DNA of 64,000 nucleotides from Chiloscyllium plagiosum (lineage: Eukaryota). The notes under the pieces were generated by a model. It was not told the origin of the DNA. It did no database searches and was given only the letters and a program-made list of their open reading frames with translations. The DNA lies in NCBI RefSeq assembly GCF_004010195.1, contig NC_057719.1, positions 24,808,750 to 24,872,749 of the forward strand, written 5' to 3'. Every line of letters starts with the position of its first letter. Positions within the stretch are counted from its first letter, which is position 1. Positions 259 through 62,037 of this stretch are shown here, piece after piece. The translations under genes were made by a program, and so were the position numbers.

Positions 259-1009
259 TGTGTTGAAGGAAAGATTGGGAAGGCTGTGGTCCCTTTCTAC
301 AGGGTTTGCTGAGATGATCCTTCCACTGATCAGAACGCAGCCTTTTAATTTCCCTTCTCTGGACACCTTCCCCTGTTTGTGGGAGGTACAGGGTAACTAC
401 TTCACACTCTCAATATCTCTGACTTAGTAAATAAAAATCACAGCTTAAAGCAATGAGAAAGGGTAATAACTGGCATTCTTCAATCTTGAGATGCTTTCTA
501 CTGCAGAACAATAATAGTTCCTTCCTTTACAGAGGTCTACTGGCTTCTGAGCCAAACCTTATGACCCCCACGCCATTCAGCTTCCTGGAGCCAACCATAC
601 AGACGCTGGATACAGAAGGCCTTCATTTTCAAAAACTGATCACTAGTCCATAGACCAATCGCCTACACATTGTCAGCCAAAGGTCCATTTGTTCTCTGCC
701 CTGTCACCAGACCATCTGCAACAGGACGTGCCCTGCTACTTGAACAAACAGCTGTGTAAACATCACTTGCAGCGAGTATCACAGTTACTTGCATTTTTTA
801 AAAAGCATAGCAGTCCTTGAACATTTCTTGCCTTTTAAATCAGTTTATTTTCCACTTCAGTCCATATCAACAATAAATGAAAATGAATCATTAATATTAT
901 ACTACTTTCCTGCCTGCCATTTTAAAAACCTTGAAAAAGCAACAGACTGCCCACTGCTACCTGTCTGCCAAAACCAACCACACTGTAGCATTGGCCATAT
1001 AACATTAGG

Positions 1010-1207
1010 AGAAAGTGAGGTCTGCAGACGCTGGAGATCAAAGCTGAAACTTTATTGCTGGAACAGCACAGCAGGTCAGGCAGCATCTAGGGAACAGAAG
1101 ATTCGACGTTTCGGGCACATGAAGAAGGGCATGTGCCCGAAACGTCGAATCTTCTGTTCCCTAGATGCTGCCTGACCTGCTGTGCTGTTCCAGCAATAAA
1201 GTTTCAG
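1010..1207. mobile_element. Fold-back mini-element from a PLE pseudo-LTR (family A)
   Basis: Perfect 79-bp inverted arms 1043-1121/1130-1208; 14-bp direct repeat CATATAACATTAGG at 996-1009 and 1208-1221; truncated hammerhead core TGAAGA-AGGGCATGTGCCC-GAAACGTC. Confidence 0.85.
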
Positions 1208-1809
1208 CATATAACATTAGGGTCAAATTTCCCTAACAAGGTCAACTTCCTGATTTAGGACCAGATAGACCATTTGTTGGTTAGAGTTCCCCAGAAGCAA
1301 TGGTCCCCCCAAAGCTGCTCGGCCACCATTCCATGATCCCATGTACCAATGCAATGACTTCCAGTTTTGGAAGTCAATGCTACATACAGATCTCAGATGC
1401 TAACAAAACAAAGGGGAGTATTGCCCAAAAATGTATACTCAACATCAAAAAACTAGCTTTTAAAAGAAAGAGTACCTGATATGACAGGACATCCCAAAAT
1501 GAATTAAACACTTTTTGAAGCATATTTGCTAGTGTAATGTACAAAACACAACATAATAATGACCAGATTCTCAGTTTTAGTGGCTTTGATTTAAAAAAAG
1601 TGTTGATAGCAAGTTGAACAACTTTCTACTTTCTTCTTCTGTAGTGTATTCATTCATGAAGTTTTAGTGAATTTTTGTATGATGTAAATTGAATCCCATT
1701 GGAACCAAACCAGTTCTTACTCCTTTGTATGGTTTTGGACTTGGAAATAGGTGGCACCCACCTGCTCCAGTGAGAGGACTGGAAAGTCTAAGCTGAAATG
1801 ACAACTTAC

Positions 1810-2011
1810 TTGTAGGGAATGGAAATTCCTTATTGCAATCCAAATGAAGTTGCGCCTCTAGAGACAAGGTATCGAACCTATTGACAAAAAACTCCCAGCT
1901 TAAAGCTGGAATGTCTTGCTTTAAGAAATGAAGAAGAAATAATTTGCTGAGGATTGTTGGCCTGTCCTTCACCACAGTGTCAAACTGAAAGTCGAGGCAA
2001 AGACAGAGACC
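1810..2011 (-). CDS. UNC79: UNC79 exon GLCLCLDFQFDTVVKDRPTILSKLFLLHFLKQDIPALSWEFFVNRFDTLSLEAQLHLDCNKEFPFPT
   Basis: 202 nt, catgtag|GGT ... ACA A|gtaagt, phase 0/1; gene continues beyond the window. Confidence 0.96.
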
Positions 2012-2364
2012 CTACATGAAAATAAATAAAAGCTAGAAGTTAATCACACAGGCTGTATATAATTATATAAATATATATATAAAATAGGACTTCCAAATAT
2101 TGCAAGTTTTCCATGATATTATGTCAAGGTGTTATTTGTTGTTTACATACATTTTTAGGAACTCAAACTGCTGCCTTTGGCATCCTTTCTATCTGAAAAA
2201 ACAAGTAAATCAAATGTGTTTCCAATTCAAATTTTAATCTTTCCATGACAATTTATGATAAAAGGATGAAGATTTATTCAAGGAAAGCAGGATTGTGAAG
2301 TGAAGAGGATGTTCTGGGCTTTTGCGGACTAGTCTCTGAAAGTAGAACCAATCTTATAATACTC

Positions 2365-3085
2365 AGTCATGGGATGTGTGCATCGATGTAAGGCTAGCAT
2401 TTATTCCCAATCCCTAATTGCCCTTGTACTGAAAAGCTTGCTGGGCCATTTCAAGACAAAAAACTGCAGATGCTGGAATCCAAAGTACTCAAGCAGGAGA
2501 CTGGAAGAACACAGCACGCCAGGCAGCATCAAGAGATGGAGAAGTCGACGTTTTAGGTGTAACCCTTCTTCAGGACCGGGGGTGGGTATGGGGGAAGCTG
2601 CAGATAAAGATGGTAGTGGGGGCAGGGTGCTGAAGATAGGCAGCGGGTATGAGCTGGTTAGTCAATGGGAGTAATGAATCCATTAGGTGGCTGGAGGGGG
2701 GGGGTGGGGGGTGGTTGAAGGGATGGGGGTGTGCTGGGAACGGAGTCAGGAGAAGGGAATGGAGGTTATTTGATATTGGATAACTCAATGTTGAGTCCTC
2801 CAGGCTCATTTCAGATAGCAGTTAAGTCAACCATACTGCTGTGGATCTGGAGACACACGTAGAACAAACTAGGTGATAATGGCAGATTTCCTTCGTAAAT
2901 GACGAGAAAATCAGGTGGGTTTTTATGAAAATTAGCAACGGTTACATGGTCAACTTTTGGCCAGCATTAATTCCAGATTTCTATTAAATTCGAATGTTAC
3001 CATTTGCCATGATGGGTTCTGAGCCCCAGAATATTAGTTTGAGGTTATAGTTATGAGTCCAGTGGCACTATCTCTACACCACCCA
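2365..3085 (-). mobile_element. tRNA-derived SINE (DeuSINE/SacSINE1-like 3' tail), interrupted by a PLE fragment
   Basis: Tail motif (reverse complement GGGAATAAATGCTAGCC...CACATCCCATGA) shared with LINE ends at about 28800 and 58830; family name from memory. Confidence 0.55.
2454..2806 (-). mobile_element. PLE (Neptune-like) 3' fragment: ORF C-terminus plus pseudo-LTR with degenerate hammerhead
   Basis: 7-bp TSD CATTTCA (2447-2453/2807-2813); minus strand encodes PGGLNIEL; CTGAAGA-AGGGTTACACCT-AAAACGTC. Confidence 0.75.
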
Positions 3086-4618
3086 TGTCATGTTTGACTC
3101 CAGGCCATGGTTTTCTTTTTGACCCCTACTACCTGGCTATGTAGTTTTACTGTCATGCATTCAGCGCTGGTTGTTGGACTACTAAACTCAATTGTTTGCG
3201 GTGTTCAGCAGCAGGAAATCCTGCTTGGTTTTGTACATACCTCACTCTAAAAAATATCAGAACTATTCCTGTCATGCCTTATTACAATCTTTATTTAGCA
3301 AAGAATGCTTTCCTAGCCAAATGCTGTCCAAGGGAAGAGCAGCATTCTGAGCCTTAATACTGCTGCTTATTTTTGTACATAATCCTGTTCCTGAGGTGGC
3401 ACAAAATACATTGTGAACAATCATCTTGGACTGCCTACTTTATATGACAATAACTTACATTCATACAGTTCCCTTAATACAACAATCCACGGCATTACGC
3501 AAGAAAATTATAAAACAAAGTATGACACCAAGTAACATATTCGTGGTGGAGATTAGTACCATACAGGTATCACTTCTGCCAAAATTGTGGGTAGATGCTT
3601 TAAAAAGAGATGGGTGGAAAGATACGCTCAAGTAAACTACTTTCTTGCGTTGGTTACCTCATCATCCAATGCAAGCCCAGTCTGAAAGCTATAATGTTAA
3701 AGCATGAACAAGGGCAGACAGATGTGTTACTATCAAGTCCCCTTATCACAGTACATTCTGTGCTTACGTTGCTCTCATCTCCCTCATGTGTGATGTTTAA
3801 CATGAAGGCGAGCAATCAATAGTTTCCTTGGCATTATTTTATTTGAAGCCATGAGACTTCATAGATCTAGCATCAGTGTATTAGACTAAGAATATTGCCA
3901 CTAATTCTTTTCCATTCTACAAGGCATGTCTGTATAAGATTTATCAGTTAACACAGATCCAGGGACATTTGAACAGGAACCTGGCATTTTCCAAACCAAC
4001 AAATACTGGGCTCAACATCACTGATGACTATTTTGAGAGTACATACAGGTCATCTGACTGGTATACAGATGAGTTCCGAGGTTTTATCGATCACACTTGC
4101 TCTTATCCATGTTAAAAGGTAGATCTGATTTCCTTCTTACAATTAAAGTTTGTAACAATTGCTTTAAATCCAGATAAATTTCTAGGTTATTTCAGAAATA
4201 ATTATCAGCCACATGTAAGGAAATATAGCATAATAATTATGGAAAAGCAAAATACTGCTGATGCTGGAAATCCGGAAAAAAACCAGAAGTGCTGGAGAAA
4301 CACAGCAGGTCTGGCAGCTATAGAGAAAGGAACAGAGTTAACATTTCAAGTCTTCTTCAGAGCTAAAAGCAGTTGGAAAATGGTATTTTGTTTTATATAG
4401 TTTTGACAGAGGCAGAGGATAAGCAAAAGGAACAGAAAGTTTGTAGGTCCAATGCAAAAGAATTGCTAATTGGTATAAAAGAGAAATAGAGAAATAAATT
4501 TGGTTTAAAGTAAGGTGGGATGGTTGAAAATAGGCCATCTCAGCTGAAAGCAAAGTTTAAAAAAAACACAAACAAGATTTAGGGTGTAGGTTTGCTCGCT
4601 GAGCTGCAGGTTTGGTAT

Positions 4619-4658
4619 CCAGACGTTTCATTACCTGGCTAGGTAACATCATCAGTGG
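4619..4658 (-). ncRNA. Minimal type I hammerhead ribozyme motif in PLE pLTR (on the UNC79 pre-mRNA strand)
   Basis: CCA-CTGATGA-T-GTTACC-TAGCCA-GGTAAT-GAAACGTC-TGG; activity untested. Confidence 0.65.
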
Positions 4659-5578
4659 CAACCTCCAAGTGAAGCGAAGCTGTTGTCTCCTGCTTTCTAT
4701 TTATATCTTTCTCCTGGATGGGGTTCCTGGGGTTTGTGGTGATGTCATTTCCTGTTCGTTTTCTGAGGGGTTGATAGATGGCATCTAGATCTATGTGCTT
4801 GTTTATGGCGTTGTGTTTGGAGTGCCAGGCCTCTGGGAATTCTCTGGCATGTCTTTGCTTAGCCTGTCCCAGGATAGATGTGTTGTCCCAGTCGAAATGG
4901 TGTTTTTTTTCATTTGTGTGTAGGGTTATGAGGGAGAGGGGATCGTGTCTTTTTGTGGCTAGCTGGTGTTCATGTATCCTGTTGGCTAACTTTCTTCCTG
5001 TTTATCCGAGGTAGTGTTTGTGGCACTCCTTGCATGGAATTTTATAGATGACGTTGGTTTTGTCCAGGGGTTGTACTGGGCCTTTTAAGTTTGTTAGTTT
5101 TTGTTTGAGAGTGTTGGTGAGTTTGTGTGCTACTAGCATTCCGAGATAAATTATTCTTGATTGATTTACTTGACTTTTTTTGATGAAATAATTAGAGATA
5201 TTTGGTGATGAGAATGTGGTAAATGGTATCTATATACATTTCAAATACACATTTGACAAAGTACCACATAAAAGTCTGGTAAACAATACTAGGGCTTCTG
5301 AAATAAAGAGTCAGTGTTCAATTGGATAAAAATAGTAGTTTAAAGACAGAGAACAGTGGGTTGTAGTAGCTCATTGTGTTTCAGTCAGGAGAGTGGTTGA
5401 TCATGGCATTCTCTAAGGTCCTTTGTATTTACCACTGCTTTTGTTTGCTAAACATAAAAGATTCAAATCTTGGAACTGGAGTAAAATTTCAAAACTTGCC
5501 GATGAGACCAAATGGATGCATGGCTTATAGGATGATATGAGTTGCCTGCAACAATACATAAATAGGCTCAAAGATTGG

Positions 5579-6469
5579 NNNNNNNNNNNNNNNNNNNNNN
5601 NNNNNNNNNNNNNNNNNNNNNNNNNNNNNNNNNNNNNNNNNNNNNNNNNNNNNNNNNNNNNNNNNNNNNNNNNNNNNNNNNNNNNNNNNNNNNNNNNNNN
5701 NNNNNNNNNNNNNNNNNNNNNNNNNNNNNNNNNNNNNNNNNNNNNNNNNNNNNNNNNNNNNNNNNNNNNNNNNNNNNNNNNNNNNNNNNNNNNNNNNNNN
5801 NNNNNNNNNNNNNNNNNNNNNNNNNNNNNNNNNNNNNNNNNNNNNNNNNNNNNNNNNNNNNNNNNNNNNNNNNNNNNNNNNNNNNNNNNNNNNNNNNNNN
5901 NNNNNNNNNNNNNNNNNNNNNNNNNNNNNNNNNNNNNNNNNNNNNNNNNNNNNNNNNNNNNNNNNNNNNNNNNNNNNNNNNNNNNNNNNNNNNNNNNNNN
6001 NNNNNNNNNNNNNNNNNNNNNNNNNNNNNNNNNNNNNNNNNNNNNNNNNNNNNNNNNNNNNNNNNNNNNNNNNNNNNNNNNNNNNNNNNNNNNNNNNNNN
6101 NNNNNNNNNNNNNNNNNNNNNNNNNNNNNNNNNNNNNNNNNNNNNNNNNNNNNNNNNNNNNNNNNNNNNNNNNNNNNNNNNNNNNNNNNNNNNNNNNNNN
6201 NNNNNNNNNNNNNNNNNNNNNNNNNNNNNNNNNNNNNNNNNNNNNNNNNNNNNNNNNNNNNNNNNNNNNNNNNNNNNNNNNNNNNNNNNNNNNNNNNNNN
6301 NNNNNNNNNNNNNNNNNNNNNNNNNNNNNNNNNNNNNNNNNNNNNNNNNNNNNNNNNNNNNNNNNNNNNNNNNNNNNNNNNNNNNNNNNNNNNNNNNNNN
6401 NNNNNNNNNNNNNNNNNNNNNNNNNNNNNNNNNNNNNNNNNNNNNNNNNNNNNNNNNNNNNNNNNNNNN
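5579..6469. other. Assembly gap (891 N)
   Basis: Run of N. Confidence 1.
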
Positions 6470-6573
6470 AAAATGAACAGGAAATTACATCACCACAAAC
6501 CCCAGGAACCCCATCCAGGAGAAAGATATAAATAGAAAGCAGGAGACAACAGCTTCGCTTCACTTGGAGATCG

Positions 6574-6613
6574 CCACTGATGATGTTACCTAGCCAGGTA
6601 ATGAAACGTCTGG
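6574..6613 (+). ncRNA. Minimal type I hammerhead ribozyme motif in PLE pLTR
   Basis: CCA-CTGATGA-T-GTTACC-TAGCCA-GGTAAT-GAAACGTC-TGG; stem I CCA/TGG, stem II GTTACC/GGTAAT. Confidence 0.65.
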
Positions 6614-7553
6614 ATATCAAACCTACAGCTCAGCGAGCAAACCTACACCCGAGACCTCAACCTGAGCTACAAACCTTCACAAACCTTGCACAAACAAGGT
6701 TAAAGAAAGAAATATGGAGAACACTTCACGAGGTCAGGCTAATTCATGTTGAGACCTAGAGGCTGTAAGGTGCCTAAGCCGAAAATGAGATGTTGTCCCT
6801 TGGGCTTGCACTGTGCTTTGTTGGAACATTACAGCAATCCCAGGATAGAAATGTGAGCATGAGAACAAGGTAGTTTACTGAAATGGGAAGCAACTAGAAG
6901 ATCAGAGTCATTCCTACAGTCAGAGCTAGTGGTAGTGTTCAGCAAAGCCATCATCCACTCTGCATTTGGCCTCACCATTGTAAAGGTTAATGCATTTTGA
7001 GCAATAAACACAGTAGAAAAGATTGAAAAAAGTATACGCAAAATGTTGCTTCACCTGGAAAGTATGTTAGCAGCCTTGGACAGTGAGAAGTGAGGAAGTG
7101 ATTGGACAGTTGCCATGGAGAATGAAGTATTAGAAGCAATGGAGGAGGGGACCAGGGTATTGTGGAGGTAATACAGAATGCCGAAAGTGGAGGTGTGAGG
7201 AGAAGATTCATTTGATGGTGGCATATTGCTGAAGATGGCAGAAATGGCAGAAAGCAATGACTAGTGAAGTGGAAAGTGAAGGCAAGAAGAACTCTATTGT
7301 GATGGGATTAAGAGGAAGGGATGAGGGTATAAGCACAGGAAATGGGTTGGACATGGCTGAAGATCCTATCAATCAGACTGAACTATGGTCAGGGAAGTAA
7401 TGCAAAGAAACAGGCATAATATGGACCCATGTGGATACCCATAGCCAGATCTCATGGTGAAGAGGAGGAAACTGGTAATTGTGGAACTGATGTAAAGAAT
7501 CAGAAGAATCATGAAGAATCATGAACGTAAATGTGAGAGACTCAAAATGACGA

Positions 7554-7603: not shown

Positions 7604-7999
7604 GCGTAGAGTCAAGATGGGAAGAAGTTAATTGGGACAGGAAGAGACTGAAACAGGTGAGTCTGCCAGAGCAATCTGTTTGTGGATTTTGGGATAACTA
7701 CGTGATTGGGTTACAATGAGGTGGGAAGATGTGCAAGGGGGATCTCCAGAGAACATGACATCAGTGACAGTCCTGAAAATAGCAGCCTGATATTCAGTGG
7801 TGAGGTCATGATCCAAGGGAGATAAGAGGAAAGGTCAAAGAGTTGGGGCTCTGCCTCTGCACGATTGAAGTCACGATGCCTGACAACAAAAGCAATGTAG
7901 AAGCGAATTACTGCAGATGCTGGAATCTGTACTGAAAACAAATGCTGGGGATCACAATGGATCAGGCAGCATCAATGGAGAGAAAGCAAGATAATGTTT

Positions 8000-10900
8000 A
8001 GAGTCATAGGGATGTACAGCACGGAAACAGACCCTTCGGTCCAACTCGTCCATGCTGACCAGATTTCACAACCACTTGGCCCATATCCCTCAAAACCCTT
8101 CCTATTCATATACCCATCCAAATGACTTTTAAATGTTGCAATTGTACCAGCCTCCACCACTTCCTCTGGCAGCTCATTCCATACACGTACCACTCTCTGT
8201 GTGAAAAAGTTGCCCCTTAGGTCTCTTTTATATCTTTCCCCTCTCACACTAAACCTATGCCCCCTAGTTTTGGATTCCCCTACCCCAGGGAAAAGACTTT
8301 GTCTATTTATCCTATCCATACCCCTCATGATTTTATAAACCTCTATAAGGTCACCCCCTCAGCCTCCGACACTCCAGGAAAAACAGCCCCAGCCTATTCA
8401 ACCTCTCCCTATCGCCCAAATATTCCAAACCTGGCAAGGTCCTTGTAAATCTTTTCTGAGCCCTTTCAAGTTTTACAACATGCATCCGATAGGAAGGAGA
8501 CCAGAAGTGCACACCATATTCCAAAAATGGCCTAACCAATGTCCTGTACAGCTGCAACATGACCTTCCAACTCGTGTACTCAATATTCTGACCAATAAAT
8601 GAAAGCATACCAAACGCCTTCTTCACTATCCTATCTACCTGCGATTCCACTTTCAAGGAGCTATGAATCTGCACTCTAACATCTCTTTGTTCACCAACAC
8701 TCCCTAGGACCTTACCAATAAGTGTATAAGCCCTGCTAAGATTTGATTTCTCAAAGTGCAGCACCTCGCTTGTATCTAAATTAAACTCCATCTGCTAGTC
8801 CTCAGCCCATTGGCCCATCTGATCAAGATCCCATTGTACTCTGAGGTAACCTGTTTTGCTGTCCACAGCACCTTCAATTTTGGTGTCATCTGCAAACTCA
8901 CTAACTATACTTCTTATGCCCACATCCAAATCATTAATATAAATGATGAATCGTCGTGGACCCAACACCGATCCTTGTGGCATTCTACTGGTCACAGGCC
9001 TCCAGTCTGTAAAACAACCCTCCACCACCACCCTCTGTCTTCTACCTTTGAGCCAGTTCTGTATCCAAATGGCTAGTTCTCCCTGTATTTCATGAGGTCT
9101 AACCTTGTTAACCAGTCCCCATGGGAAGCTTTGTCCAACACCTTACTACAGATCAAGTCTACCCCTCTGCCCTCATCAATCCTCTTTGTTCTTTCTTCAA
9201 AAACTCAATCAAGTTTGTGAGACATGATTTCTCATGTTGACTATCCCTAATCAGTCCTTGCCTTTCCAAATACATGTACATCCTGTCCCTCAGGATTCCC
9301 TCCAACAACTTGCCCACCACCGATGTCAGGCTCAGTGGTCTATAGTTCCCTGGCTTGTCCTTACTACTTTTTAAAAATAGTGGCACCACGTTAGCCAACC
9401 TCCAGTCTTCCGGCACCTCACCTATGATTATCAATGATACAAAAATCTCAGCAAGGGGCCCAGCAATTACTTCCCTAGCTTCCCACAGAGTTCTAGGGTA
9501 CACCTGATCAGATCCTGGGGATTTATCCACTTTTATGCGTTTCAAGACATCCAGCACTTCCTCCTCTGTAATATGGACATTTTTCAAGGTGTCACCATCT
9601 ATTTCCCTACATTCTATATCTTCCATGTCCTTCTTCACAGGAAACACTGATGCAAGATACTCGTTTTGTATCTCCCCCATCTCCTGTGGCTCCACACAAC
9701 GACCGCCTTGCTGATCTTCGAGGGGCCCTATTCTCTCCCTAGTTACCCTTTTGTCCTTAACATATTTGTGAAAACCCTTTCGATTCTCCTTAACCTTATT
9801 TGCCAAAGCTAGCTCATGTCCCCTTTTTGCCCTCCTGAATTTTCTCTTAATTATACTCTTCTAAGGATTAACCTGATCTATCCTGTCTATACCTGACATA
9901 TGCTTCCTTCTTTTTCTAAACCAAACCCTCAATTTCTTTAGTCATCCAGCATTCCCTATACCTACCAGCCTTTCCTTTCACCCTAACAGGAATATACTTT
10001 CTCTGGATTCTCGTTATCTCATTTCTGTGAGCTTCACGTTTTCAGCCGTCCCTTTACCTGCGAACACCTGCCCGAATTAGCTTTTGAAAGTTCTTGCCTA
10101 ATACAGTCAAAATTAGCCTTACTCCAATTAAGAAATACAGCTTTTAGATCTGATCTATCCTTTTTCATCACTATTTTAAAACTAATTGAATTATGGTCAC
10201 TGGCCCCAAAGTGCTCTCCCACTGACACTTCAGTCATCTGCCCTGTCTTATTTCCCAAACGTAGGTCAAGTTGGCACCTTCTCTAGTAGGTACATCCACA
10301 TACTGAATCAGAATTTTTTTTTGTACACACTTAACAAATTCCTCTCCATCTAAACCCTTAACACTGTGGCAGTCCCAGTCTCGGTTTGGAAAGTTAAAAT
10401 CCCGTACAATAACCACCCTATTATTCTGACAGATAACCAAGATCTCCTTACAAATTTTTGTATGTAGGTTTGCTCACTGAGCTGGAAGGTTCATTTTCAG
10501 ACGTTTTGTCACCCTACTAGGTAACATCTTCAGTGGGCTGGTGATGTCATTTCCTGTAGAGAGATTAAATTTCCTGTTCTTTTTCTCAGCAGGTGGTAGA
10601 TAGGGTCTAACTCGATGTGTTTGTTGATAGAGTTCCAGTTGGAATGTCATGCTTCTAGGAATTCTCGTGCATTGTGGATTGAAAAAGAATGGGTACCCAA
10701 TGAACACAGTCCACCAATTTCTCAGCAACAAACTCAAACAAGTGGACAAAACGCATCCAGAAACCCTAGCCACTCTCCCCTACATCAAGGACATCTCAGA
10801 AATGACTGCCAGACTACTCAGATCCCTTGGCATCATGGTGGCCCACAAACCCACCAACACACTAAAACAGTAGCTAATGAACTTGAAAGACCCTATACAG

Positions 10901-13398
10901 ACAACAAGCAAAACTGATGTCATTTACAAAATACCATGCAATGACTGTAACAAACACTACATTAGACAAACAGGTAGAAAACTAGCCACCAGGATACATG
11001 AACATCAACATCAACAAAATGACATGACCCTCTCTCCTTAGTATCCTTACATACAGATGAGGAAGTAAACCACTTCAACAGGGACAACACATCCATCCTA
11101 GGTCAAGCTAAATAGAGACTTGCACGAGAATTCCGAGAAGCATGGTATTCCAACCAGAACTCTGTCAACAAACTCATCGAGTTCAACCCCATCTACCATC
11201 CCCTCAGAAAAACAAGAAATGACATCACCACAGGAAATGACATCACCAACCCAAAGAAACCCAAACATATAAATAGAAAGGAGTCAGCAGCAATGCTTTG
11301 CCTGGAGGCCCACTGAAGATGTTACCTAGTGTGATGACGAAACGTCTAGAAACGAATCTTCCAGCTCAGTGAGTAAACCTACATCCAGAACCTCAACCTG
11401 AACTACAACTCTTCTCAATGCTACTTACAAATTTGTTTCTCAATTTCCAGCTGACTATTAGGTGGCCTATAATACAATCCCAATAAAGTGTTCATCCCTT
11501 TCCTATTTCTCAGTTCCACCCAAATAACTTCCCTAGATCTATTTCTAGGAATATCCTCCCTCAGTACCGCTGTAATGCTATCCCTTATCAAAAACGCTAA
11601 TCCCCTTCCTCTCTTGCCTCCCTTTCTGTCCTTCCTGTATCCTGGAACATCCCAGTCCCATGTTCTTAACCATACCCTGAGGTCATCTGCCATCCCTGTT
11701 CAGCCCCTTGCATTGAAATAAATGCAGTTTAATTTATCAATCCTACCTTGTTCTCTGCTTTGTCCCTGCCTGCCCTGACTGTTTGACTCGCTTCTGTTCT
11801 CAACTGCATCAGTCTCAGATTGATCTCTTTCCTCACTATCTCCCTGGGTCCCAACACCCCACCTTACTAGTTTAAATTCTCCCGGGCAGCTCTAGCAAAT
11901 CTCCCTGCCAGTATATTTGACCCCTTCCAATTCAGGTGCAATCCGTCCTTCTTGTACAGGTCACTTCTTCCCCAAAACAACTTCCAACGATCCAAAAATG
12001 TGAATCCTTCTCCCATACACCAACTCCTCGACCATGCATCCATCTGCTCTATCCTCCTATTTCTACCCTCATTAGCTCGTAGCACTGGGAGTAATCCAGA
12101 TATTACTACTCTCGAGGACCTCCATTTTAAATTCCTGCCTAACTCTCTATATTCTCCCTTCAGAATTTCCTCCTTTTCCCTTCCTATGTCATTGGTTCCA
12201 ATGTGTATAATGATCTCCTGCTGTGCCCTCTCCCCACTGAGAACATTCTGCACTCTCTCTGAGACATCCTTGATGCTGGCACCAGGGAAGCAACACACCA
12301 TTCTGATTTTTCGCTGTTGGCCATAGAAACATCTGTCTGTACCTCGGACGAGAGAGTCCCCTAATACAATTGATCTCTTGGAACCCAGCATATCCCTCAT
12401 TGCATTACAGTCAGTCTCAATACCAGAACTTGGCTGTTTGTGCTACATTCCCGAGAATCCATCACCCCCTACATTTTCAAAAACAGCATACTTGTTTGAA
12501 ATGGGTATAGCCATAGAAGACTCCTGCACTACCTGCCTACCTCTCTTACTTTCCTGGAATTAATCCATCTATGTGACTGTATCTGTAACTTTTCTCCCTT
12601 TCTCTAACTGCAATCCATCACACCCCCTTGCTCTTGTAAATTTATCATTGCCTCTAAATGCCACTCCAAACGATCCATTCGATTTGATAGGATTCGCAAT
12701 CAACAGCATTTAATGCAGATATAATCCTCAGTAATATGTAAACTCTGCCTAAACTCCCACATCTGACAAGAAGAGCATCTCACTATACTAAGGGCCATTT
12801 TTGCTTCTTCCAATCTACAGACCCAGAAAATAGCACCTTCTTATTCCTCAACAAATAATGTTCCAGGCTAGCTTAATACTTATGGCTTATATTTTCAAGT
12901 TTAATCAAGAGAACATATGATCAAGAAAGAACCCACTCTACTCACTATTGTAGATTTATAGCAAGGTTATACTTAAAACTATTCACTTATCTGTTTCTGT
13001 GCTGTGACCTCTCCTAAACAGGTTCCTCCAAGATCAGTTGTATATTTCACTGTTTGTTAATTTTCCTAGATACATTCTGATGTCCCATGATACATGAATT
13101 CAACAGCAAATGCAGTAACTGCGTAAGTTCACTGCTGTGTCAGTTAGCAATGTGGGTTTCTTTCTCTCTCTCTCTCTCTCCTGCACTGACCTGGCCATGT
13201 GCTGCCTTTTGTCTGTCCCTCTCCCTTTTAAAAATGCAGTTGTTTTGACGTTTTTTTTCTCCAAAGATCCAAAACAATGCAACAGCATATTGCTGCTCCT
13301 GGAATTCAAGGAAATCACCTCCAACATCTAAAATACCTCAAAAAAGGAGCAGCATGTTCCAGCCAGAAATTTTTGCTCCTCTCCATCTTGGATTACCC
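8000..13398 (-). mobile_element. Near full-length CR1 LINE (5'UTR, ORF1, APE-RT ORF2, 3' tail), inactivated by frameshifts and stops
   Basis: ORF1 zinc finger VRCSSCQMW...YICIKC (about 12706-12783) and SGNH esterase (GDSLVRG, HIGTND, DGLHLN); ORF2 PQGSVLGP, FADDTK, TRGH, FFTQRVVRVWN; TATGACTC tail at 8001-8008. Confidence 0.93.
10458..11423 (+). mobile_element. Penelope/Poseidon-type PLE 3' fragment with inverted 5' pLTR, nested in the CR1 endonuclease domain
   Basis: 11-bp TSD CTTACAAATTT (10447-10457/11424-11434); NGYP...LPYIKDISE...DVIYKIPCNDCNKHYIRQTGRKLATRIHEH; hammerhead core at 11313-11346, inverted copy at about 10500-10533. Confidence 0.9.
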
Positions 13399-17966: not shown

Positions 17967-18669
17967 CTGCAAAAAACACAAGCAGAAATGAACTTTGGAT
18001 GCTGTCTTCCAGTTTTATAAGTTATCTGTACAAGATAGTGTGTATATTTTTTCTCCACATCACAAATAACTTGGTTATTTTGGAACTCAGTATTTTTTAG
18101 TCTCCAATGTCAGCCTTGAATTTGTATGTCCAGTTATTTAAAAGAAATAATGGAATGCTGGGGTGAATCGCAAGCCAGCAATCTCATCAAGTTTACATAG
18201 CATCAGGAACCACTAGTTTCAGACTGCATGCCTATCTTCTAGATAAAGAGATAAAACTCGGAATTTGTAATCTGTGGGGAAGCAAGGACACTTGCTGCTG
18301 ATATCAAAGGAAGTTGCCTACAATGATCTAATGGTCTCTCTGGCATGGATTTCCTTTTTCCAATTTTAAATTCTGCACCAAGTTTTGGGGATCTCTTTGC
18401 ATGCAGCAGCAGTGATGTCAACAAAACAGGAAGCAGTCAACCACAACAAAGTATTCACACGCAGCAAAAACACTCAACATCTTTTACTTGCAATTTAAAT
18501 TTCCAGATAACAAAGTAAATAGTTACGATTTGATTAAAATAGACTCTGACTTTTTTTGAAAAATCATTTTTAAAATGTACAATTTGTTGTTTTACAACAT
18601 AAATCTTTCAGGACCAAAGTGTCCAGCAAAAATTATGAAGTCAGTACATTAATGTTGGGAGATATTGAG

Positions 18670-18749
18670 GGGCGACGCTCCGAAAGCTAGTGTCCAACAA
18701 TTAAACCTATTGGACTATAACCTGGTGTTGTGTGATTTTTAACTTTGTC
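18670..18749 (+). mobile_element. Family B pLTR single-arm fragment (hammerhead 3' half)
   Basis: GCTCCGAAAGCTAGTG...CTGGTGTTGTGTGATTTTTAACTTTGT, same as 25296-25363. Confidence 0.75.
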
Positions 18750-24619: not shown

Positions 24620-25020
24620 GATTCATCGAATCATAGAATCGCTACAGTGTAGAAGCAGGCCCATCGAGTTCACACTGGCCCTCCAAACAGGATCCCATCC
24701 AGACCCACTCCCCTACCCTATCCCTATAAACCTGTATTTTATTATGGCTAATCCACCTAACCTGCATATTCCTGAACAACAGGCATTCAACCATGGCCAA
24801 TCCACCTAATCTAGATAAAAACAATGACTGCAGATGCTACTTTCTCCCCACCCCCACCCTCCTCTAGCTTATCTCTCCACCCTTCAGGCTCTCTGCCTTT
24901 ATTCCTGATGAAGGGCTTTTGCCCGAAACGTCGATTTTACTGCTCCTCGGATGCTGCCTGAACTGCTGTGCGCTTCCAGCACCACTAATCCAGAATCCAC
25001 CTAATCTGCACATCTTTGGC
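24620..25020 (-). mobile_element. Partial HE1-like V-SINE with nested family A mini-element
   Basis: Similar to the SINE 3' halves at 43755-43930 and 61460-61890. Confidence 0.65.
24813..24993. mobile_element. Family A mini-PLE (inverted tail plus one arm) with intact hammerhead core at 24905-24932 (+)
   Basis: 14-bp TSD AATCCACCTAATCT (24799-24812/24994-25007); ATTC-CTGATGA-AGGGCTTTTGCCC-GAAACGTC-GATT. Confidence 0.8.
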
Positions 25021-25144
25021 TATATCTCCATAAAAAGTTTCATTAATCAAAGTTTAGGCAGTCAGAAAATTTGGAACCCACTTCCAAACATGTAAACAAA
25101 TAGGGAGATCTTTGTTCACAGACTACATATCCTAACAATTACTG

Positions 25145-25359
25145 ATTTGGAGATGCCGGTGTTGGACTGGGGTGTACAAAGTTAAAAATCACACAACACC
25201 AGGTTATAGTCCAACAGGTTTAATTGGAAGCACACTAGCTTTCAGAGCGACGCTCCTTCATCAGGTGATAGTCTATCACCTGATGAAGGAGCATCGCTCC
25301 GAAAGCTAGTGTGCTTCCAATTAAACCTGTTGGACTATAACCTGGTGTTGTGTGATTTT
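25145..25359. mobile_element. Family B fold-back mini-PLE with a hammerhead core on each strand
   Basis: 91-bp inverted arms 25181-25271/25273-25363 (2 mismatches); 12-bp TSD TAACAATTACTG (25133-25144/25360-25371); CAC-CTGATGA-AGGAGCATCGCTCC-GAAAGCTA-GTG at 25277-25311, mirror at 25233-25267. Confidence 0.85.
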
Positions 25360-25407
25360 TAACAATTACTGGTAAGTCATCAGGATTTCATACTTTGTTA
25401 ACCTTAC

Positions 25408-34072: not shown

Positions 34073-34164
34073 GAGTCAAAAAGCATTGTGCTGGAAAACC
34101 ACAGCCGGTCAGGCAGCATCTGAGCAACAGGACAGTTGATGTTTCAAGCATAAGCTCTTCATCA
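34073..34164 (-). mobile_element. Family A pLTR single arm abutting a V-SINE
   Basis: Minus strand CCTGATGA-AGAGCTTATGCTT-GAAACATC. Confidence 0.7.
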
Positions 34165-34467
34165 GGGTGGCAAGGTGGCTCAGTGGTTAGCACTGCTGTC
34201 TCACAGTACCAGAGTCCCAGGTTCGATTCTAGCCTTCGGCAGCTGTCTGTGTGGAGTTTGCACATTCTCCCCATGTGTGCGCAGATTTCCTCCGGGTGCT
34301 CTGGTTTCCTCCCATAGTCCAAAGATGCGCAGGTCAGGTGAATTGACCATGCTAAATTGCCCACAGTGTTAGGTGCATTAGTCAGAGGGGAAAGGGGTCT
34401 GGGTGGGATATTCTTTGGAGGGTCGGTGTGGACTGGTTGGGCCGAAGGGCCTGTTTCCACACTGTAG
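34165..34467 (+). mobile_element. HE1-like V-SINE, full length
   Basis: Pol III A box TGGCTCAGTGG and B box GGTTCGATTC; V-domain TGTGTGGAGTTTGCACATTCTCCCC...GGTTTCCTCCCA; CR1-like tail GGGCCGAAGGGCCTGTTTCCACACTGTA. Confidence 0.85.
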
Positions 34468-45139: not shown

Positions 45140-46658
45140 CTATGTAGTAAAAAGAAGTAAACACCGATGTTTTGCATGAATAATTTGTCTGATTTACTGG
45201 GACATATTTCAGAAGATCACCCAACTACTGTAGACTTTATCCAATTTTTTATTCTATTGTTTTCCACTAGATTGCCACTCACGCACTGAAGACAAGAATT
45301 TACCCCTGAAGAAACATGTCAATCGTAAACATCATGGACTAGTAATAATGAAATATAAAGAAAAGACACAGTAATGGAAAACAAAACTGAGCCATACAAC
45401 AGCAAAGTTTGTCAAGTACAAAACCTGTACAGTAATTAGTAATGCTATAATGGGGAAGAAGGACAAAGCTACCTTGTATACTCAGAGGAGAGAAAACAAA
45501 GTTATCTTATCTGCCTTCAGAAACCTCTGTTCACTGGCCCTGAATGTTGATTAAATTAGTTCATTCAGAATTCTCTAATAAATCAGTTGTACAATAGCTG
45601 CAGTATAATGCTTGCTTTCTGTGATTTTGTTGCCATTGATACCAATGGTACTACAACATGTCTGGTTGTAGCATAGAGCAATTAATTACACAGCACTAAG
45701 TGACAGGCATTGAAAATAGGTTAATAATCTTGGGATTAAGGTCATTACATCTCATGAAAGTAATGGCATTATCTGAATTTCTATGCAACATAGGTCCAGA
45801 TCTTTCAGCAGTACAGTCGTTATGATTATTTTATGCTACAGCCTCTATCTTGGCTTCAAATTGGAACCACCATAGAACAGAGTTGCGGATCTGTGTGTTG
45901 AATATAACTCCAGCAAAGTCCTTAGCGACTACCTTCAGTTCACTGACTAACATATTTTTAAATACAGTTGTCACTCCCAACAGTTCACAAACTCCCCTTC
46001 TGACAACACTGCCTCCACTGTTCTCCAAGAAAGCAAATTCTGAACACTCACAATTTTCTGACTCACAATTCCACCCTCATAGTCAATCCCTTCCTTTGTC
46101 TCATTGAAGGAAAATTTGGCCTACTCCTGTGGCCCTTCCTATGGTCTCCACAGCATCCTGACTGGGGCAACCATACTTCCCAGACTGATTGCATTTGACC
46201 TGCAAAACTAACTATGGCCCACTTTTTGGGTTGCAAAAACTTGAATCCCCAGGTTCTGATATGGTCATGAACCTGACTGACCAAGGCCAATCCCATGGAC
46301 TGGAACAGAACAAGCTCTTTGATTGACTGTGGGAGTACACTCTGACTAACATTGGTCCCCCTGACTCCTCATGCCGTTGAGCACTGTTTCTCTTTAATAT
46401 TCACACATGGCTATTTGTTTGGGGCACATGCAGTGTGTGTATTTTGTACACTGCTGGTACATGCTGCAGGTATGATGCTAACGTAGCATGTTGCCATACA
46501 ATGATATGTCCACCCCACCTTGGCTGTTGAATACTTATTAATGTCACAAGCTACCTGCCTCTCCCCTAAAAAGTAATGCGAGCCACAGTAGCTGGCAGTC
46601 TGTAATTGAGCAAAAAAAAAGTTTATTCAGAAAGCAATGTGATACATTCAGAAGCTGG

Positions 46659-46749
46659 ATCAAGAGTGTGGTGCTGGAAGGCACAGCAGATCAGGCAGCA
46701 TGCGAGAAGCAGGAGAATCGATGTTTCAGGCATAAGCCCTTCATCAGGA
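46659..46749 (-). mobile_element. Family A pLTR single-arm insertion
   Basis: 17-bp TSD ATACA(T/C)TCAGAAGCTGG (46642-46658/46750-46766); minus strand TTC-CTGATGA-AGGGCTTATGCCT-GAAACATC. Confidence 0.8.
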
Positions 46750-48347
46750 ATACACTCAGAAGCTGGCAATCTGTAACTGAGAGCTGAACTTAGTCTATCC
46801 TGGGGCCATAAGAAGCATCCTGAGTAGATGAATGAGATACGTGTGTATTCTTGTGTACAAAGTGATCTGACAAAAGCATGCAAACTGTAGGTGTCTCTGA
46901 GTTTCAATGACAAATGTTGAAGAGCTCAACAGGTGACTGGGTTGGTCCAAGAGCAGGTATGATACTGTGATGAGGTGATTTGCCAATGCTGACTTGCTTG
47001 GGTGAAGGGTTGAGGAGAATGTTGGCAATGGAGCATGCAGGAACAATGTTGTGAAGAACCAGTTGGATGATGGCCAGAACAAGCATTCAGCGACCTGCAG
47101 CTACCAGGTACCTGCTCTGATTTACGTGCCAGGTATTTATGCCATCGAGAGGAGAATTGGAAGTGGCATGTAAGTAAAGTTAGGTGAGGTTTTAATGAGA
47201 TGCAAACATATGGAAAAAAGGAAGCCAACGGCAAGATCTTGAAATTGGCATCTAAGGCTCAAGGAGAAAAATCGAAAAATGTTTTGTTCGATATCATGAT
47301 TACTTTTTATTCTTCCCACATTTTCCACTTTTCTCAACGTGGTTCATGTCATATCAGGGAGGGGAAATTCTGCCATTCTCTAACTTCTCATTCCTTCCTG
47401 TTAAATCATTCTTGATGTATTTTAAATTCTATACAATCTTCTAATCTACCACTAATATTACAGAACTGTGCACTCTTTCTTCTTCTATTTTGATAACTAT
47501 CTTTAACCACAGTGCATAATTTGCACACAGACTATTTCCCACACTGAAACATATCCTTACTGAGTGCAATGAAGTATCTCCTTAAGTACTTGTCTCTTGA
47601 CTATCGTATTCTTTAACTTGTCTTTCACCTTCACTGTCTTTACATCTTTGAAATTGCCTTTATTAAAGTTTAAAACATTCGTCTCTTCACCCTCAAACTA
47701 AATAAAATTCATGCTGTCATCTTTGCTACTTAGAGGCTTTTAACGGAAGTCCATTCATTGATCCTGTCATTACATATCACCTGGTCTAGAATGGTCTGTT
47801 GTTTGGTTAGCACTCGAATAAGCTAGTTGAAGAACATGACCAGAATGCAATCTATGAACTCAGGTCAGGGTAGGCACAGGGCACACAACTCACATCTCAG
47901 TGGTATTGGATATCCAATCAGACTTTCATAAAGAGTCATGCAGTAAGGTAAAACTAGTAATCGGAAGTGTAAACTTTCTGTATTTGAGCCCCCAAATAAT
48001 ATTCACCTCTGTCAATGCTCACCCCTAACAATATTTACCCCTACCCAAAACGTCCGTCTCCTGACAATGTGTTCACCCTTCTTGAAAACGTTCACGCCTA
48101 CCTAACAATGTTCGCTTAACCTCCCACCTCCAACAATGCTCAATCCCCATCTCCACAAAGCCTGAACTCCTCAGGATCTCAACAAACATTAGTGACTGAA
48201 GTTCAGTTGGTCACCAGTGCCCTATCAGAAGATTCAGGCCATTATCATATTTCAATTTGTTTGCAGGCATTCATCATCTTCCATGAACTAATTTAGTGCC
48301 GATATATTCGTAAGTGTTACATGAAAATCATCATTTTAGTTACGTAC

Positions 48348-58819: not shown

Positions 58820-59755
58820 TTGTTTATTCATTCAAAAGAATAAATGGCCAGGCCAGCATTTTGTGCTCATACATAATTGTCCCTTATAAGGGTGGTGGTC
58901 AGCTGCCTTTTTCAACCACTGGAGTTCTTAGTGTGTAGGAACACCCACAATGTTATTAGGAAGGAAGTTCCAAGGTATTGACTCAACGATGGTAAAGGAA
59001 TGGCAATATAGCTCCAAGTCAGGATGATATGTGATTGGAGCAGAAGTTGCTGCTGGTGGTGTTCTTATGCATCTGCTGCCCTTCCCTTTTCAAGTGCTAA
59101 AGCCTGTAGGTTTGCTGTTGTAAGAAATTGGTGAATTGTTGTAGTGCATCTTGTAAGCGGTATATGCTGTTGCCACTATCCATTAGTGATGGACGGGGTA
59201 TCAATGAAATGGATTGCATTGTCTTGGATGGTGTCGAACTTAATGTGTGTTTTTGGACGAAGTTAAAAGTGTTTTTGGAGCTACACTCATCCAGGACAGT
59301 GGAGAGTATTCCATCACAGTCCTGACTCATGCCCTGTAAACGGTGCTCAACCATCGGGGAAACAGGAAATAAGTTTCTCGCCCAGAATTCATGGCCTCTA
59401 ACCCGCTCTTGCAGCTATCATATGTGTATGGATGGACCAGTTCAGTTTCTGGTCAATGGTAACCCCCAGAATGTGGACAGTGGGAGATTCTGCAATGTTA
59501 AACCCAACAAAAGCTCAGGGACACTGATTAGATTCTCTCTTATTGGTGATGATGTGGAGGAGCTGCGGTTCTACTGCGGGTGGACAAAGTCAAAAATCAC
59601 ATAATACCAGGTTATAGTCCAACAGATTTATTTGGAAGCACTAGCTTTTGGAGTGCTGTTCCTTCATCAGGTCTAGTGCTACTAAATAAACCTGGTGTTG
59701 TGTGATTTTTAACCTTATTGGTGATGGTCATTGTCTGGTACTTGAACAGCATGAA
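58820..59755 (-). mobile_element. LINE 3' fragment (same family as 28140-28822), with nested family B element
   Basis: Reverse-complement similarity including the tail. Confidence 0.6.
59552..59713. mobile_element. Family B mini-PLE with truncated second arm
   Basis: 13-bp TSD CTTATTGGTGATG (59539-59551/59714-59726). Confidence 0.8.
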
Positions 59756-59925
59756 TGACAACAAAAAGCATGATCAAAGGTTGGTTTTAAGAAAGTTTTA
59801 AAGAAGGAAAGGTACAGAAGCACAGATCTGTTGAGTATCCCAGAGCTTTGGGCATTGACAACTGAAGGCGAACCAATCAATGGTGGAGTAATTAAAATCA
59901 GGTATGTTTAGAAGGCCAAAGTTAG

Positions 59926-60137
59926 AGGAGGAGAAAGTGAGAACTGCAGATACTGGAGATCAGAGTCGAGAGTGTGGTGCTGGAAAAGCCTCAGCAGGTC
60001 AGGCAGCATCCGAGGAGCAGGAGAATCAATGTTTCGGGCGTCAGCCCTTCATCAGGAATCTTGCCCGAAACATCAATTCTCCTTCTCCTAAGATGCTGCC
60101 TGACTTGCTGTGCTTTTCCAGCAACACACTCTTGACA
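59926..60137. mobile_element. Family A fold-back mini-PLE (diverged arms)
   Basis: Same head GAGAAAGTGAG..CTGCAGAT as 1010 and 61528; minus-strand core CTGATGA-AGGGCTGACGCCC-GAAAC at 60031-60055. Confidence 0.75.
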
Positions 60138-60174
60138 AAGGACGAGTGCAGATATATACGATGCATATTCTGAT

Positions 60175-60470
60175 GGAATCGAAAAGTGTGGTGCTGGAAA
60201 AGCACAGCAGGTCAGGCAGCATCCAAATAGCAGGAGAGTCGTATCAGGCATAAGCTCTTCATCTGGAATTGGGGGGATGGTAGCTGGGAAGGCGATAGGT
60301 CAGTACAGGTGGGGGGTAGGTGGTGATAGATCCGAGGGAGGGTAGAATGGACAGGTGGGAATGTACCTGTCCATCTTCCTTCCCACCTATCCACTCCACC
60401 CTCCCCTCCAACCTATCACGCCCACCTGTATCTATCTATCGCCTTCCCAGCCACCTTCTCCTCCATCCCC
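60175..60470. mobile_element. Longer family A pLTR fragment with internal imperfect inversion
   Basis: Family A arm, then GCTGGGAAGGCGATAG...ACAGGTGGG mirrored by CCCACCT...CTATCGCCTTCCCAGC. Confidence 0.65.
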
Positions 60471-61459
60471 AAGGGGCATCATGTAGTGGGCCAAGGATAG
60501 ATCATCAAGGGATGCAAGGGAAGGAAGAGACACCATTGCAAGTGATTTTCTGGCAATGAGTAGGCAATTAAAAATGGAACGAGGTGAAAGCAGTCCCACA
60601 AAAGTGGAGAATCAGGACGTCTTATGGTGTTGTGATAGTCTCCCTACCCCTGGACTAGGAAGCCTGGATTCAAGTCCCACCTGCTCCAGAGGTGAATAAT
60701 AACATTTCTGAATGGGTTCATTAAGAAAATCTGGTTAAATAAAAATATAATCAGAAGTGGAGAATCATTCAACGAGGTTGATGTGATCAACTGTGCAAAG
60801 GTTGCAGACAGACCAAAAGGGAAAGCTTACTTTTGTCACACTACCATAGGATATAACTTGTGCTTTTGATGAGAGCTGTTTTGGTATTGTGGCAGCTGAT
60901 TTAATTCAAACATGGAGTTCCAGGAAAATTGGAAATGGATTTGGGAGGCGGGTACATGACTTTGGAGATTGTATGGCAATTTTAAAGAATGGTGAGGTCA
61001 AGAGTTGTTTTTTGAGGCGTGATGACAATACACTTAAAGGATAGGGGTACAAGACCTGAAGAAACAAAATCATTTATAACATCTGAATCAGGAGGGAAGC
61101 TCATCTGTACTTTAAGCAGGTATGGTTTAAGGGAGTGATTTCTGAGATTCATGGATAACATGAGCTTGGAAATGGCACAAGAGGAGAAAAACTGTAGAAA
61201 GATTTAAATTCAGGGCTAGAGCATTGCGTGCATTATGGGATATTTGGCCCAGTGTGCTGGTAGAAAGGAGAGATGCAGCAGAGGCAGCTGAGTGGATTGT
61301 CCTGACATTCGTGAGGAAGTCCATGAGCATCCATTATTGCTGGAGGTGAAGGTGAGGGGAATCGGAGGAGAGAAGTTTTAGAGAATGTTTTACAGTAAAT
61401 GAAACTTAGAGGTTACTTTTGCATTCCAGGTTAATCCTAGAACATTGAGCATTTTTTAA

Positions 61460-62037
61460 ATAGATTCCCCACAGTGTGGAAACAGGCCCTTCGGCCCAAC
61501 AAGTCCACCATGCCCCTCTGAAGACTATGAGGAGAAAGTGAGGTCTGCAGATGCTGGAGATCAGAGCTGGAAATGTGTTGCTGGAAAAGCGCAGCAGGTC
61601 AGGCAGCATCCAGGGAACAGGAGAATCGACGTTTCGGGCATAAGCCCTTCTTCACTTTTGTGGGACTGCTGAAGAAGGGCTTATGCCCGAAACGTCGATT
61701 CTCCTGTTCCCTGGATGCTGCCTGACCTGCTGCGCTTTTCCAGCAAAACATTTCCCTCTGAAGACTAACCCATCCAGACCCATTCCTCACCCTTACGTTT
61801 ATCCCTGACTAATGCACCTAACCTATACATCCCTGAACACTATGGGCAATTCAGCATGGCCAATTCACCTAACCTGCACATGTTTGGATTGCGGGAAGAA
61901 ACCAGAGCACCCAGAGGAAACCTATGCAGACACAAGGAGAACATGCAAACTCCAGACAGACAGTCGCCAGAGGCTGGAATTGAACCTGGGTCCCTGATGC
62001 TGTGAGACAGCAGTGCTAACCACTGAGCCACCATGCC
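61460..62037 (-). mobile_element. HE1-like V-SINE interrupted by a family A mini-PLE
   Basis: A/B boxes at about 61975-62032; V-domain; tail at 61460-61527. Confidence 0.85.
61528..61753. mobile_element. Family A fold-back mini-PLE (young)
   Basis: 86-bp arms 61569-61654/61670-61755 (1 mismatch); 14-bp TSD CCCTCTGAAGACTA (61514-61527/61754-61767); core CTGAAGA-AGGGCTTATGCCC-GAAACGTC at 61669-61696. Confidence 0.88.

What the first reader, a model, noticed from the sequence alone, without database searches (positions are those of the whole stretch)
996..61767. Dense population of hammerhead-bearing, pLTR-only mini-retroelements in UNC79 introns
Seen: about 15 insertions of 90-360 nt, unrelated to the CR1s and V-SINEs. 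They share one layout: a ~30-nt unpaired tail, an arm, often the same arm inverted, and 7-17 bp direct repeats. Three sequence families (A, B, C) keep CTGA(T/A)GA...GAAA(C/G) while stem II changes but stays paired: GGGC/GCCC with loops ATGT, TTAT, TTTT or TGAC; GGAGC/GCTCC; GTTACC/GGTAAT. Families A and C adjoin PLE ORF remnants (HLIFxLGTLQPxGLN; VIYKIPC..C...Y.G.TGR). Established: PLE pLTRs carry minimal hammerheads and PLE insertions often have inverted pLTRs with a 3' tail. Inference: these are non-autonomous, retrozyme-like elements or extreme 5' truncations mobilised by PLE RT/GIY-YIG, at very high copy number in this shark genome.
Basis: partly seen in the sequence, partly recalled or inferred. 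Interest (0 to 1): 0.75.

Follow-up and report, generated by a model that had tools for sequence, protein, structure and literature searches.

The report
Penelope retroelement stubs ending at ribozyme
The short inserts are real and very common, but they are the clipped ends of three Penelope-type jumping genes that carry a known kind of predicted self-cutting RNA, not a new mobile element; in two families the clipping piles up just before that RNA motif, likely where the element's transcript starts.

Summary
Observation largely confirmed: 16 loci (24 arms) of families A, B and C lie in UNC79 introns. Fourteen are 82-353 nt; the two C loci are 1-2 kb. All three families are terminal repeats (pLTRs) of endonuclease-bearing Penelope-like elements (PLEs): longer copies run on into a GIY-YIG-type ORF end. 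The window's density (0.25 loci/kb) equals that of a 1.3-Mb genome sample (about 0.9 million loci if extrapolated). Minimal hammerheads, inverted pLTRs, the one-sided tail and many solo copies are all published for PLEs. A self-propagating retrozyme family is not supported: 5' ends and junctions vary, no unit-length arrays were seen, and the stubs lack the upstream TATA-like box. One notable point: in A and B, 5' ends pile up from 13 nt before to 3 nt into the hammerhead core (92 of 265; 37 of 81), about 30 nt below a TATA-like box, with no peak at the predicted cut. This fits run-off at the transcript start after internal priming. That step is inferred: no cap-G excess was found and C lacks the pile-up. 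The scan has reported the same reading many times on other DNA of this and other genomes.

The parts
996..1221 (.). Family A inverted pair (arms 1011-1119 minus with tail, 1120-1208 plus without), 14-bp target duplication at 996 and 1208
2463..2815 (-). Family A solo copy: endonuclease ORF end, 3' UTR, degenerate hammerhead, tail
4254..4363 (-). Old, diverged A-like arm
4567..6698 (.). Family C inverted insertion of about 2.1 kb (891 N inside); minus arm holds a GIY-YIG-type ORF end (4642-5120); 10-bp target duplication
6750..6900 (-). Separate endonuclease C-terminal remnant (HLIF...LGTLQP...GLN) abutting the C insertion
7909..8001 (-). Old partial A-like arm without the 5' core
   Evidence: E 2e-7
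10447..11434 (.). Family C subfamily inverted insertion, 967 nt; plus arm holds linker and endonuclease ORF end (about 10780-11300); 11-bp target duplication
18668..18749 (+). Family B solo arm, tail-less, begins inside the core (+7)
24799..25007 (+). Family A solo arm with about 66 nt of 3' UTR, intact core, 14-bp target duplication
25133..25371 (.). Family B inverted pair; arms begin at -8 and -7 from the CUGA core; 12-bp target duplication
33681..33925 (.). Family B inverted pair with short spacer; 10-bp target duplication
34067..34167 (-). Family A solo arm, tail-less
46638..46755 (-). Family A solo arm with tail, begins at -4
59539..59726 (.). Family B full arm plus short inverted arm; 13-bp target duplication
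59933..60138 (.). Family A inverted pair; minus arm begins at -4, plus arm in the stem II loop
60162..60463 (-). Family A arm preceded by 3' UTR-like sequence and its inverted copy (the hairpin that draws weak miRNA-model matches)
61514..61767 (.). Family A inverted pair, arms 99% complementary, 14-bp target duplication

Best explanation
The inserts are 5'-truncated terminal repeats of three endonuclease-bearing Penelope-like retrotransposon families, and the short A and B copies are likely run-off products made when the element's reverse transcriptase primes about 90 and about 125 bases inside the front of its own transcript and copies to the transcript's start, predicted to lie 4-8 bases before the hammerhead core. 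Shown here: contiguity with the endonuclease ORF; two 3' end positions 30-36 nt apart; one tail per inverted pair; target duplications up to about 15 bp; the pile-up of 5' ends; a TATA-like box 35-40 nt before the core. Taken from the anole PLE (PMC11167929): both target strands are cut and extended, priming is internal at two sites that delimit the tail, and uncut RNA is the template. Inferred: that the pile-up is the transcription start; that one target strand uses the far site and the other the near site; that stubs, having lost the TATA-like box and the sequence beyond the tail, are dead on arrival.
For: Long copies join ORF end, 3' UTR, hammerhead and tail without a break: A (weak Pfam GIY-YIG, E 8e-4, below cut-off), B, C. 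Shark relatives of the A ORF carry RT and endonuclease motifs. 5' ends at -13..+3: A 92 of 265, B 37 of 81, with 2 and 0 at -19..-14; per-base stopping rate 5.6% and 6.0% there, against 1.6% and 1.2% downstream and 0.7% and 0.6% upstream. Independent of upstream homology: in 102 of 123 A/B inverted pairs the two cores lie 40 nt apart or closer; the solo copies with a flank repeat of 10 bp or more ending near the core did so at -12 to +5 (7 A, 3 B). TATAAA at -36..-40 in 10 of 12 long B copies; TTTAT at -34..-37 in 17 of 22 long A copies. The recurring B junction joins a -8 and a -7 arm with the tail on either arm (7 of 30 query-selected hits). Partial tandems jump from the -4 to -8 end into the element's 5' region and ORF start (contig joints), so templates carried the front of an ORF-bearing RNA. 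113 of 130 pairs have exactly one tail (50% expected if independent; P 4e-19). Raw reads of run X19 show loose ends at -4 (78 reads) and at the tail end, so the ends are not assembly artefacts.
Against: No transcription start was measured; neither read lay listed a place where many molecules begin. No excess of an untemplated G before the ends: 13 of 53 against 13.0 expected in A, 3 of 18 against 5.0 in B, 5 of 15 at A -4. Family C has a TATA box in 5 of 10 long copies but no pile-up (3 of 27 at the core, 23 long). Ends are spread over about 10 nt, and 117 of 265 A arms end further inside. Penelope of Drosophila virilis has an internal TATA-less promoter (PMC2377424); if shark PLEs do too, stubs could be transcribed. 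No intact full-length element was recovered, because long copies hold assembly gaps. End positions in old copies depend on the choice of donor; 18 arms were reclassified as long on a second test.
Confidence: 0.62

Rival explanations
1. Ordinary truncation of cDNA primed in the 3' pLTR, with the enzyme stalling or being blocked as it passes a folded, protein-bound or dimerised hammerhead.
For: The peak (-5..-2 in A) coincides with the 5' strand of helix I. No cap-G excess. Ends also accumulate through the core (+4..+23). The anole hammerhead is protein-assisted (PMC11167929).
Against: A structure should stop the enzyme on entry (+20..+32), not after it is copied (inference). Family C has an equally well-formed hammerhead but no pile-up. 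The left edge sits about 30 nt below a TATA-like box in both A and B.
Confidence: 0.23
2. The stubs are non-autonomous, retrozyme- or SINE-like elements, transcribed as short RNAs and mobilised in trans by PLE protein.
For: A short RNA starting near -4 to -8 would also give the pile-up. An internal promoter is reported for Drosophila Penelope (PMC2377424). pLTR sequences sufficed for trans-mobilisation in a rotifer (PMC3846280). Retrozymes derive from pLTRs (bioRxiv 10.64898/2026.07.22.740005). Stub sequence is about 60 times deeper in RNA reads than the sequence after the tail.
Against: Junctions differ between loci and the tail is on either arm. Young stubs match ORF-bearing copies at 97-100% over the shared stretch. 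No equal-unit arrays among 34 same-strand neighbour pairs. Reads lie on both strands and 94% run on into unlike flanks, as expected for passive read-through. The anole protein needs RNA extending about 55 nt past the priming site (PMC11167929), which stubs lack.
Confidence: 0.1
3. The 5' ends record hammerhead self-cleavage of the template in vivo.
For: The core and helices are maintained between subfamilies. 18 of 265 A arms end within +24..+32.
Against: That density (2.0 per nt) is below the neighbouring 2.75 per nt; B has 1 of 81. Most stubs contain the whole uncut ribozyme. No read ends pile up at the cut, in a library poorly suited to show them.
Confidence: 0.05

Closest known systems
Insertions of endonuclease-positive Penelope-like elements: pLTR, adjacent inverted 5'-truncated copy, 30-40 bp tail at one end (PMC8557442 and PMC3846280, passages)
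   Same: Head-to-head inverted arms, tail on one arm, target duplication, heavy 5' truncation, partial tandems, TATA and initiator-like motifs in the pLTR.
   Different: Most A and B insertions here are only the terminal 90-130 nt, at about 0.25 loci/kb, with 5' ends concentrated at one place.
Minimal hammerheads of metazoan PLE pLTRs (PMC4209133, parts 1-2 of 4)
   Same: Core boxes, bulged base before helix II, short helix I, palindromic 15.2-16.2 pair, mostly solo motifs of truncated PLEs, pairs on opposite strands 100-700 bp apart.
   Different: The parts read name no shark. The counts given there (2,000-9,000 per genome, by descriptor) are far below the estimate here; methods differ.
Poseidon of Anolis carolinensis, PAc (PMC11167929, parts 1-2 of 4)
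   Same: Two priming sites bounding the tail about 85-125 nt past the hammerhead; both strands primed; uncut RNA used.
   Different: In vitro the two strands showed no difference in start site; here 113 of 130 pairs use one site each. In family A the putative ATG lies after the tail, not in stem II.
Non-LTR retrozymes of animals (PMC7229834, passages; bioRxiv 10.64898/2026.07.22.740005, parts 1-3 of 5)
   Same: Small, non-coding, type I hammerhead, pLTR-related, long target duplications.
   Different: Retrozymes are head-to-tail tandem units (canonical hammerheads in PMC7229834) expressed as circles. These are solo or head-to-head, with minimal hammerheads and variable ends.

Membership tests
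EN+ Penelope-like element | pLTR contiguous with a C-terminal GIY-YIG endonuclease ORF end | tested here: met
   A (weak Pfam match); B; C (motifs read by eye; no Pfam match for C)
EN+ Penelope-like element | PLE-type reverse transcriptase in the same ORF | tested here: inconclusive
   RT motifs are visible in shark relatives of A (P0003, P0004). In G000 the long C copy L217 has a gap over the RT region; RT was not fetched for A or B.
EN+ Penelope-like element | Inverted 5'-truncated copy with 30-40 nt tail at one end and target duplication | tested here: met
   113 of 130 pairs have one tail; 64 of 130 have an exact flank repeat of 9 bp or more, against 4 of 300 decoys
EN+ Penelope-like element | Partial tandems forming pLTRs | tested here: met
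   L312-L317, L100, L041
Neptune (A, B) or Poseidon (C) clade | Placement in an RT phylogeny | not tested
   Labels rest on recalled endonuclease and linker motifs only
Minimal type I hammerhead of PLEs | Core boxes, bulge, paired helix II, short helix I, palindromic helix III pair, with covariation | tested here: met
   87 strict matches in the sample, 0 in its reverse; compensatory pairs between subfamilies
Minimal type I hammerhead of PLEs | Self-cleavage (dimer or protein-assisted) | not testable with these tools
   No assay; the read library cannot show cut ends
Rfam hammerhead families | Match to an Rfam hammerhead model | tested here: not met
   None among 24 matches at E up to 1
Non-LTR retrozyme | Head-to-tail tandem units, each with a full hammerhead | tested here: not met
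   34 same-strand neighbour pairs within 600 nt among 462 arms, spacings 35-533 nt, no equal-unit array; Tandem Repeats Finder was not run, and rare arrays elsewhere are not excluded
Non-LTR retrozyme | Unit-length linear and circular RNA | not testable with these tools
   Only a poly(A) single-cell library was available as raw reads
Non-autonomous SINE-like family | Fixed 5' end and own subfamily lineage | tested here: inconclusive
   Ends cluster but spread over about 10 nt; junctions vary; no tree was built

The most novel reading that the evidence does not exclude
Hundreds of thousands of shark PLE stubs are a genomic record of a strong-stop-like step: a dimeric PLE protein primes both target strands on the 5' end of its mRNA, one strand at each of the two internal sites, and both cDNAs run off the transcript start just before an uncut hammerhead. 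Longer copies would need a template jump or priming in a downstream pLTR.
Probability: 0.5. Interest if true: 0.55.

Novelty: new member of a known kind. Interest (0 to 1): 0.3.

Why it matters
As elements these are ordinary PLE debris. Their value is as data on a poorly understood transposition cycle. The near-strict rule of one tail per inverted pair and the pile-up of 5' ends give testable predictions on where PLE RNA starts, how the two priming sites are shared between strands, and whether the hammerhead cuts before copying. At about one locus per 4 kb they are also a sizeable repeat class in this genome that forms hairpins and mimics miRNA precursors.

Tried and rejected
Rfam scan: no hammerhead family; the miRNA-model matches are the inverted arms. 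Local enrichment in UNC79: rejected, 0.254 against 0.252 loci/kb. Cap-G signature: not found. Peak at the predicted cut: not found. Excess core conservation among copies: in A the core diverges 0.034 against 0.160 (median 0.089) elsewhere, but non-core A bases are as low; in B 0.080 against 0.095; dead copies look neutrally decayed. Cross-family MAFFT alignment fell out of register, so cross-family pairing was read by hand. Single-strand folding gave z of -0.3 to -2.4 and mostly not the hammerhead fold. Search for full-length copies returned gap-filled loci; recurring identical long junctions may be gap-closing artefacts and were not used. No RNA holder on record was listed; run X20 laid 0 reads. 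Pfam found nothing for the UNC79 exon pieces or the C fragments. Literature searches for a shark PLE-hammerhead report and for a transcript-start pile-up found none; Dfam and Repbase could not be searched. The three text supplements of PMC11167929 held none of four terms; its figures and the bioRxiv supplements, which cover one chondrichthyan, were not seen and may bear on novelty.
Full report
Observation. A motif scan and profile HMMs built from the window's own arms find 24 arms in 16 loci (A 13, B 7, C 4). Fourteen loci are 82-353 nt; the two C loci are 967 and 2115 nt and contain ORF sequence. Eight of 16 have exact flanking repeats of 10-14 bp. A strict minimal-hammerhead pattern occurs 9 times in the window and not in its reverse. 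Rfam has no hammerhead match. The host gene is UNC79 on the minus strand, and no locus overlaps the exons mapped. The nearest named proteins for the A ORF come from carpet sharks.

Genome census. I took 136 evenly spaced 10-kb tiles from contigs C1-C36, apart from C10 (1,315,925 non-N bases). They hold 462 arms (A 346, B 86, C 30), 130 inverted pairs and 332 loci. That is 0.252 loci/kb, against 0.254 in the window, and about 0.9 million loci if extrapolated; this is a rough figure from large contigs only.

Parents. Longer copies of each family continue upstream through a 3' UTR into an endonuclease ORF end: A in L214 and L215, B in L232 and L223, C in the window and L217. Pfam gives only a weak GIY-YIG match for A and none for C. 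Relatives of A from other sharks show RT and endonuclease motifs. No intact full-length copy was recovered because of assembly gaps. Neptune-like (A, B) and Poseidon-like (C) are recalled labels, not tested by a tree. Copies that run past the A tail enter a 5' region and a likely ORF start, then jump back to a second pLTR end: partial tandems.

Ribozyme. Reading the five clusters of 4 or more copies by hand: helix I pairs change between families (C-G to A-U next to the core) and within them (B: C-G to U-A; C: C-G, G-C); helix II is replaced but paired; the helix III palindrome switches from ACGU to AGCU in B. On 17 distinct C copies, 90.9% of cells pair against 85.5 +/- 1.3% in shuffles; two pairs change on both sides, a number not above the shuffles (333 of 500), and one helix II pair is broken in 8 of 17. 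The structure was drawn from these sequences and copies are related, so this is support, not a P value. Among genomic copies the 10-base core is intact in 98 of 149 A and 21 of 50 B arms, with no clear excess conservation. Selection acted on source elements, not on the stubs (inference). Cleavage is untested.

3' ends. Two end positions 30-36 nt apart occur in A and B. 113 of 130 pairs carry exactly one tail, 4 two and 13 none. 64 of 130 have an exact flank repeat of 9 bp or more, with a peak at 15 bp, against 4 of 300 decoys.

5' ends. Positions count from the C of CUGA. I scored 265 of 346 A, 81 of 86 B and 27 of 30 C arms; the rest were dropped for short alignment, tile edge or N. Ends at -13..+3 number 92 (A), 37 (B) and 3 (C); at -19..-14, 2, 0 and 0; long copies 54, 20 and 23. 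The stopping rate there is 3.5-10 times that on either side in A and B. There is no peak at the predicted cut. Junction spacing in pairs and target duplications of solo copies agree without relying on upstream homology. TATAAA lies at -36..-40 in 10 of 12 long B copies and TTTAT at -34..-37 in 17 of 22 long A copies. Seven of 30 query-selected B hits share a junction of a -8 and a -7 arm, with the tail on one arm in 4 and on the other in 3. Against the reading: no extra-G excess, no pile-up in C, and a spread of ends.

Reads. Run X19 (poly(A) single-cell, about 2% read; its species label is that of the best holder, and identity with the window's species is not shown) laid 2089 and 1941 reads on two A stretches, on both strands, 94% running on into unlike flanks. 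Loose ends lie at -4 (78 reads), at the near 3' site (348 reads) and at the tail end; depth falls from about 1055 to 17 past the tail. This confirms the ends outside the assembly and fits passive transcription. It says nothing on cleavage or the start site. X20 laid none.

Mechanism. Most likely the PLE protein cuts both target strands about 10-15 bp apart, primes at two internal sites near the front of its mRNA, one per strand, and each cDNA runs off the RNA start just before the hammerhead; the two cDNA ends are then joined head to head, or one alone is inserted. Two-strand cutting, internal priming and use of uncut RNA are shown for the anole element (PMC11167929); the run-off step and strand-wise site choice are inferred here (0.62). 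Rivals: stalling at the ribozyme (0.23), a trans-mobilised short family (0.10), ribozyme cleavage (0.05).

Prior knowledge. Read: PMC4209133 parts 1-2 of 4; PMC11167929 parts 1-2 of 4 and a term search of its three text supplements; bioRxiv 10.64898/2026.07.22.740005 parts 1-3 of 5; passages of PMC8557442, PMC3846280, PMC2377424, PMC7229834 and PMC6155905. These describe minimal hammerheads in pLTRs, solo and opposite-strand motifs, inverted pLTRs with a one-sided tail, and pLTR-derived retrozymes. Searches found no shark-specific report and no report of the pile-up; Dfam and Repbase were not available. The scan's notes hold 328 findings with these words in at least 26 genomes, several with the same run-off reading. 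I had formed that reading before looking (note); they are not independent support. Some of them report an extra G, which I then tested and did not find.

Verdict. Real, abundant, and a new member of a known kind. Interest 0.3; about 0.55 if the run-off model holds.

Noticed in passing
window 27067-27943 (minus): Broken frames resembling an LTR-retrotransposon gag with a zinc knuckle (label from recall).
   Followed up: no
window 7975-10435 and 20182-22620: Two long CR1-like LINE copies in inverted orientation, 86-95% complementary over several blocks (label from recall); an SGNH-like ORF1 piece at 11870-12442.
   Followed up: no
window 6750-6900 and 4254-4363 (minus): An endonuclease remnant and an old A-like arm flank the 2.1-kb C insertion on the same strand; they may be one old PLE split by it.
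   Followed up: no
window 13650-13800 (minus): Another decayed PLE endonuclease C-terminus with no hammerhead arm detected beside it.
   Followed up: no
L186-L213: Many long inverted A copies share one junction and the same variant bases next to N gaps, which suggests gap-closing artefacts in this assembly.
   Followed up: partly
L232, L223, L228: The family B 3' UTR is about 720 nt and carries CA-type microsatellite tracts, so this PLE may seed microsatellites.
   Followed up: no
window, all arms: 14 arms lie sense and 10 antisense to UNC79: no sign of depletion of sense hammerheads in this small set.
   Followed up: partly
L009, L312-L317: Sequence after the family A tail continues into an ATG about 35 nt on and an open frame of at least 38 codons, the likely ORF start.
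   Followed up: partly
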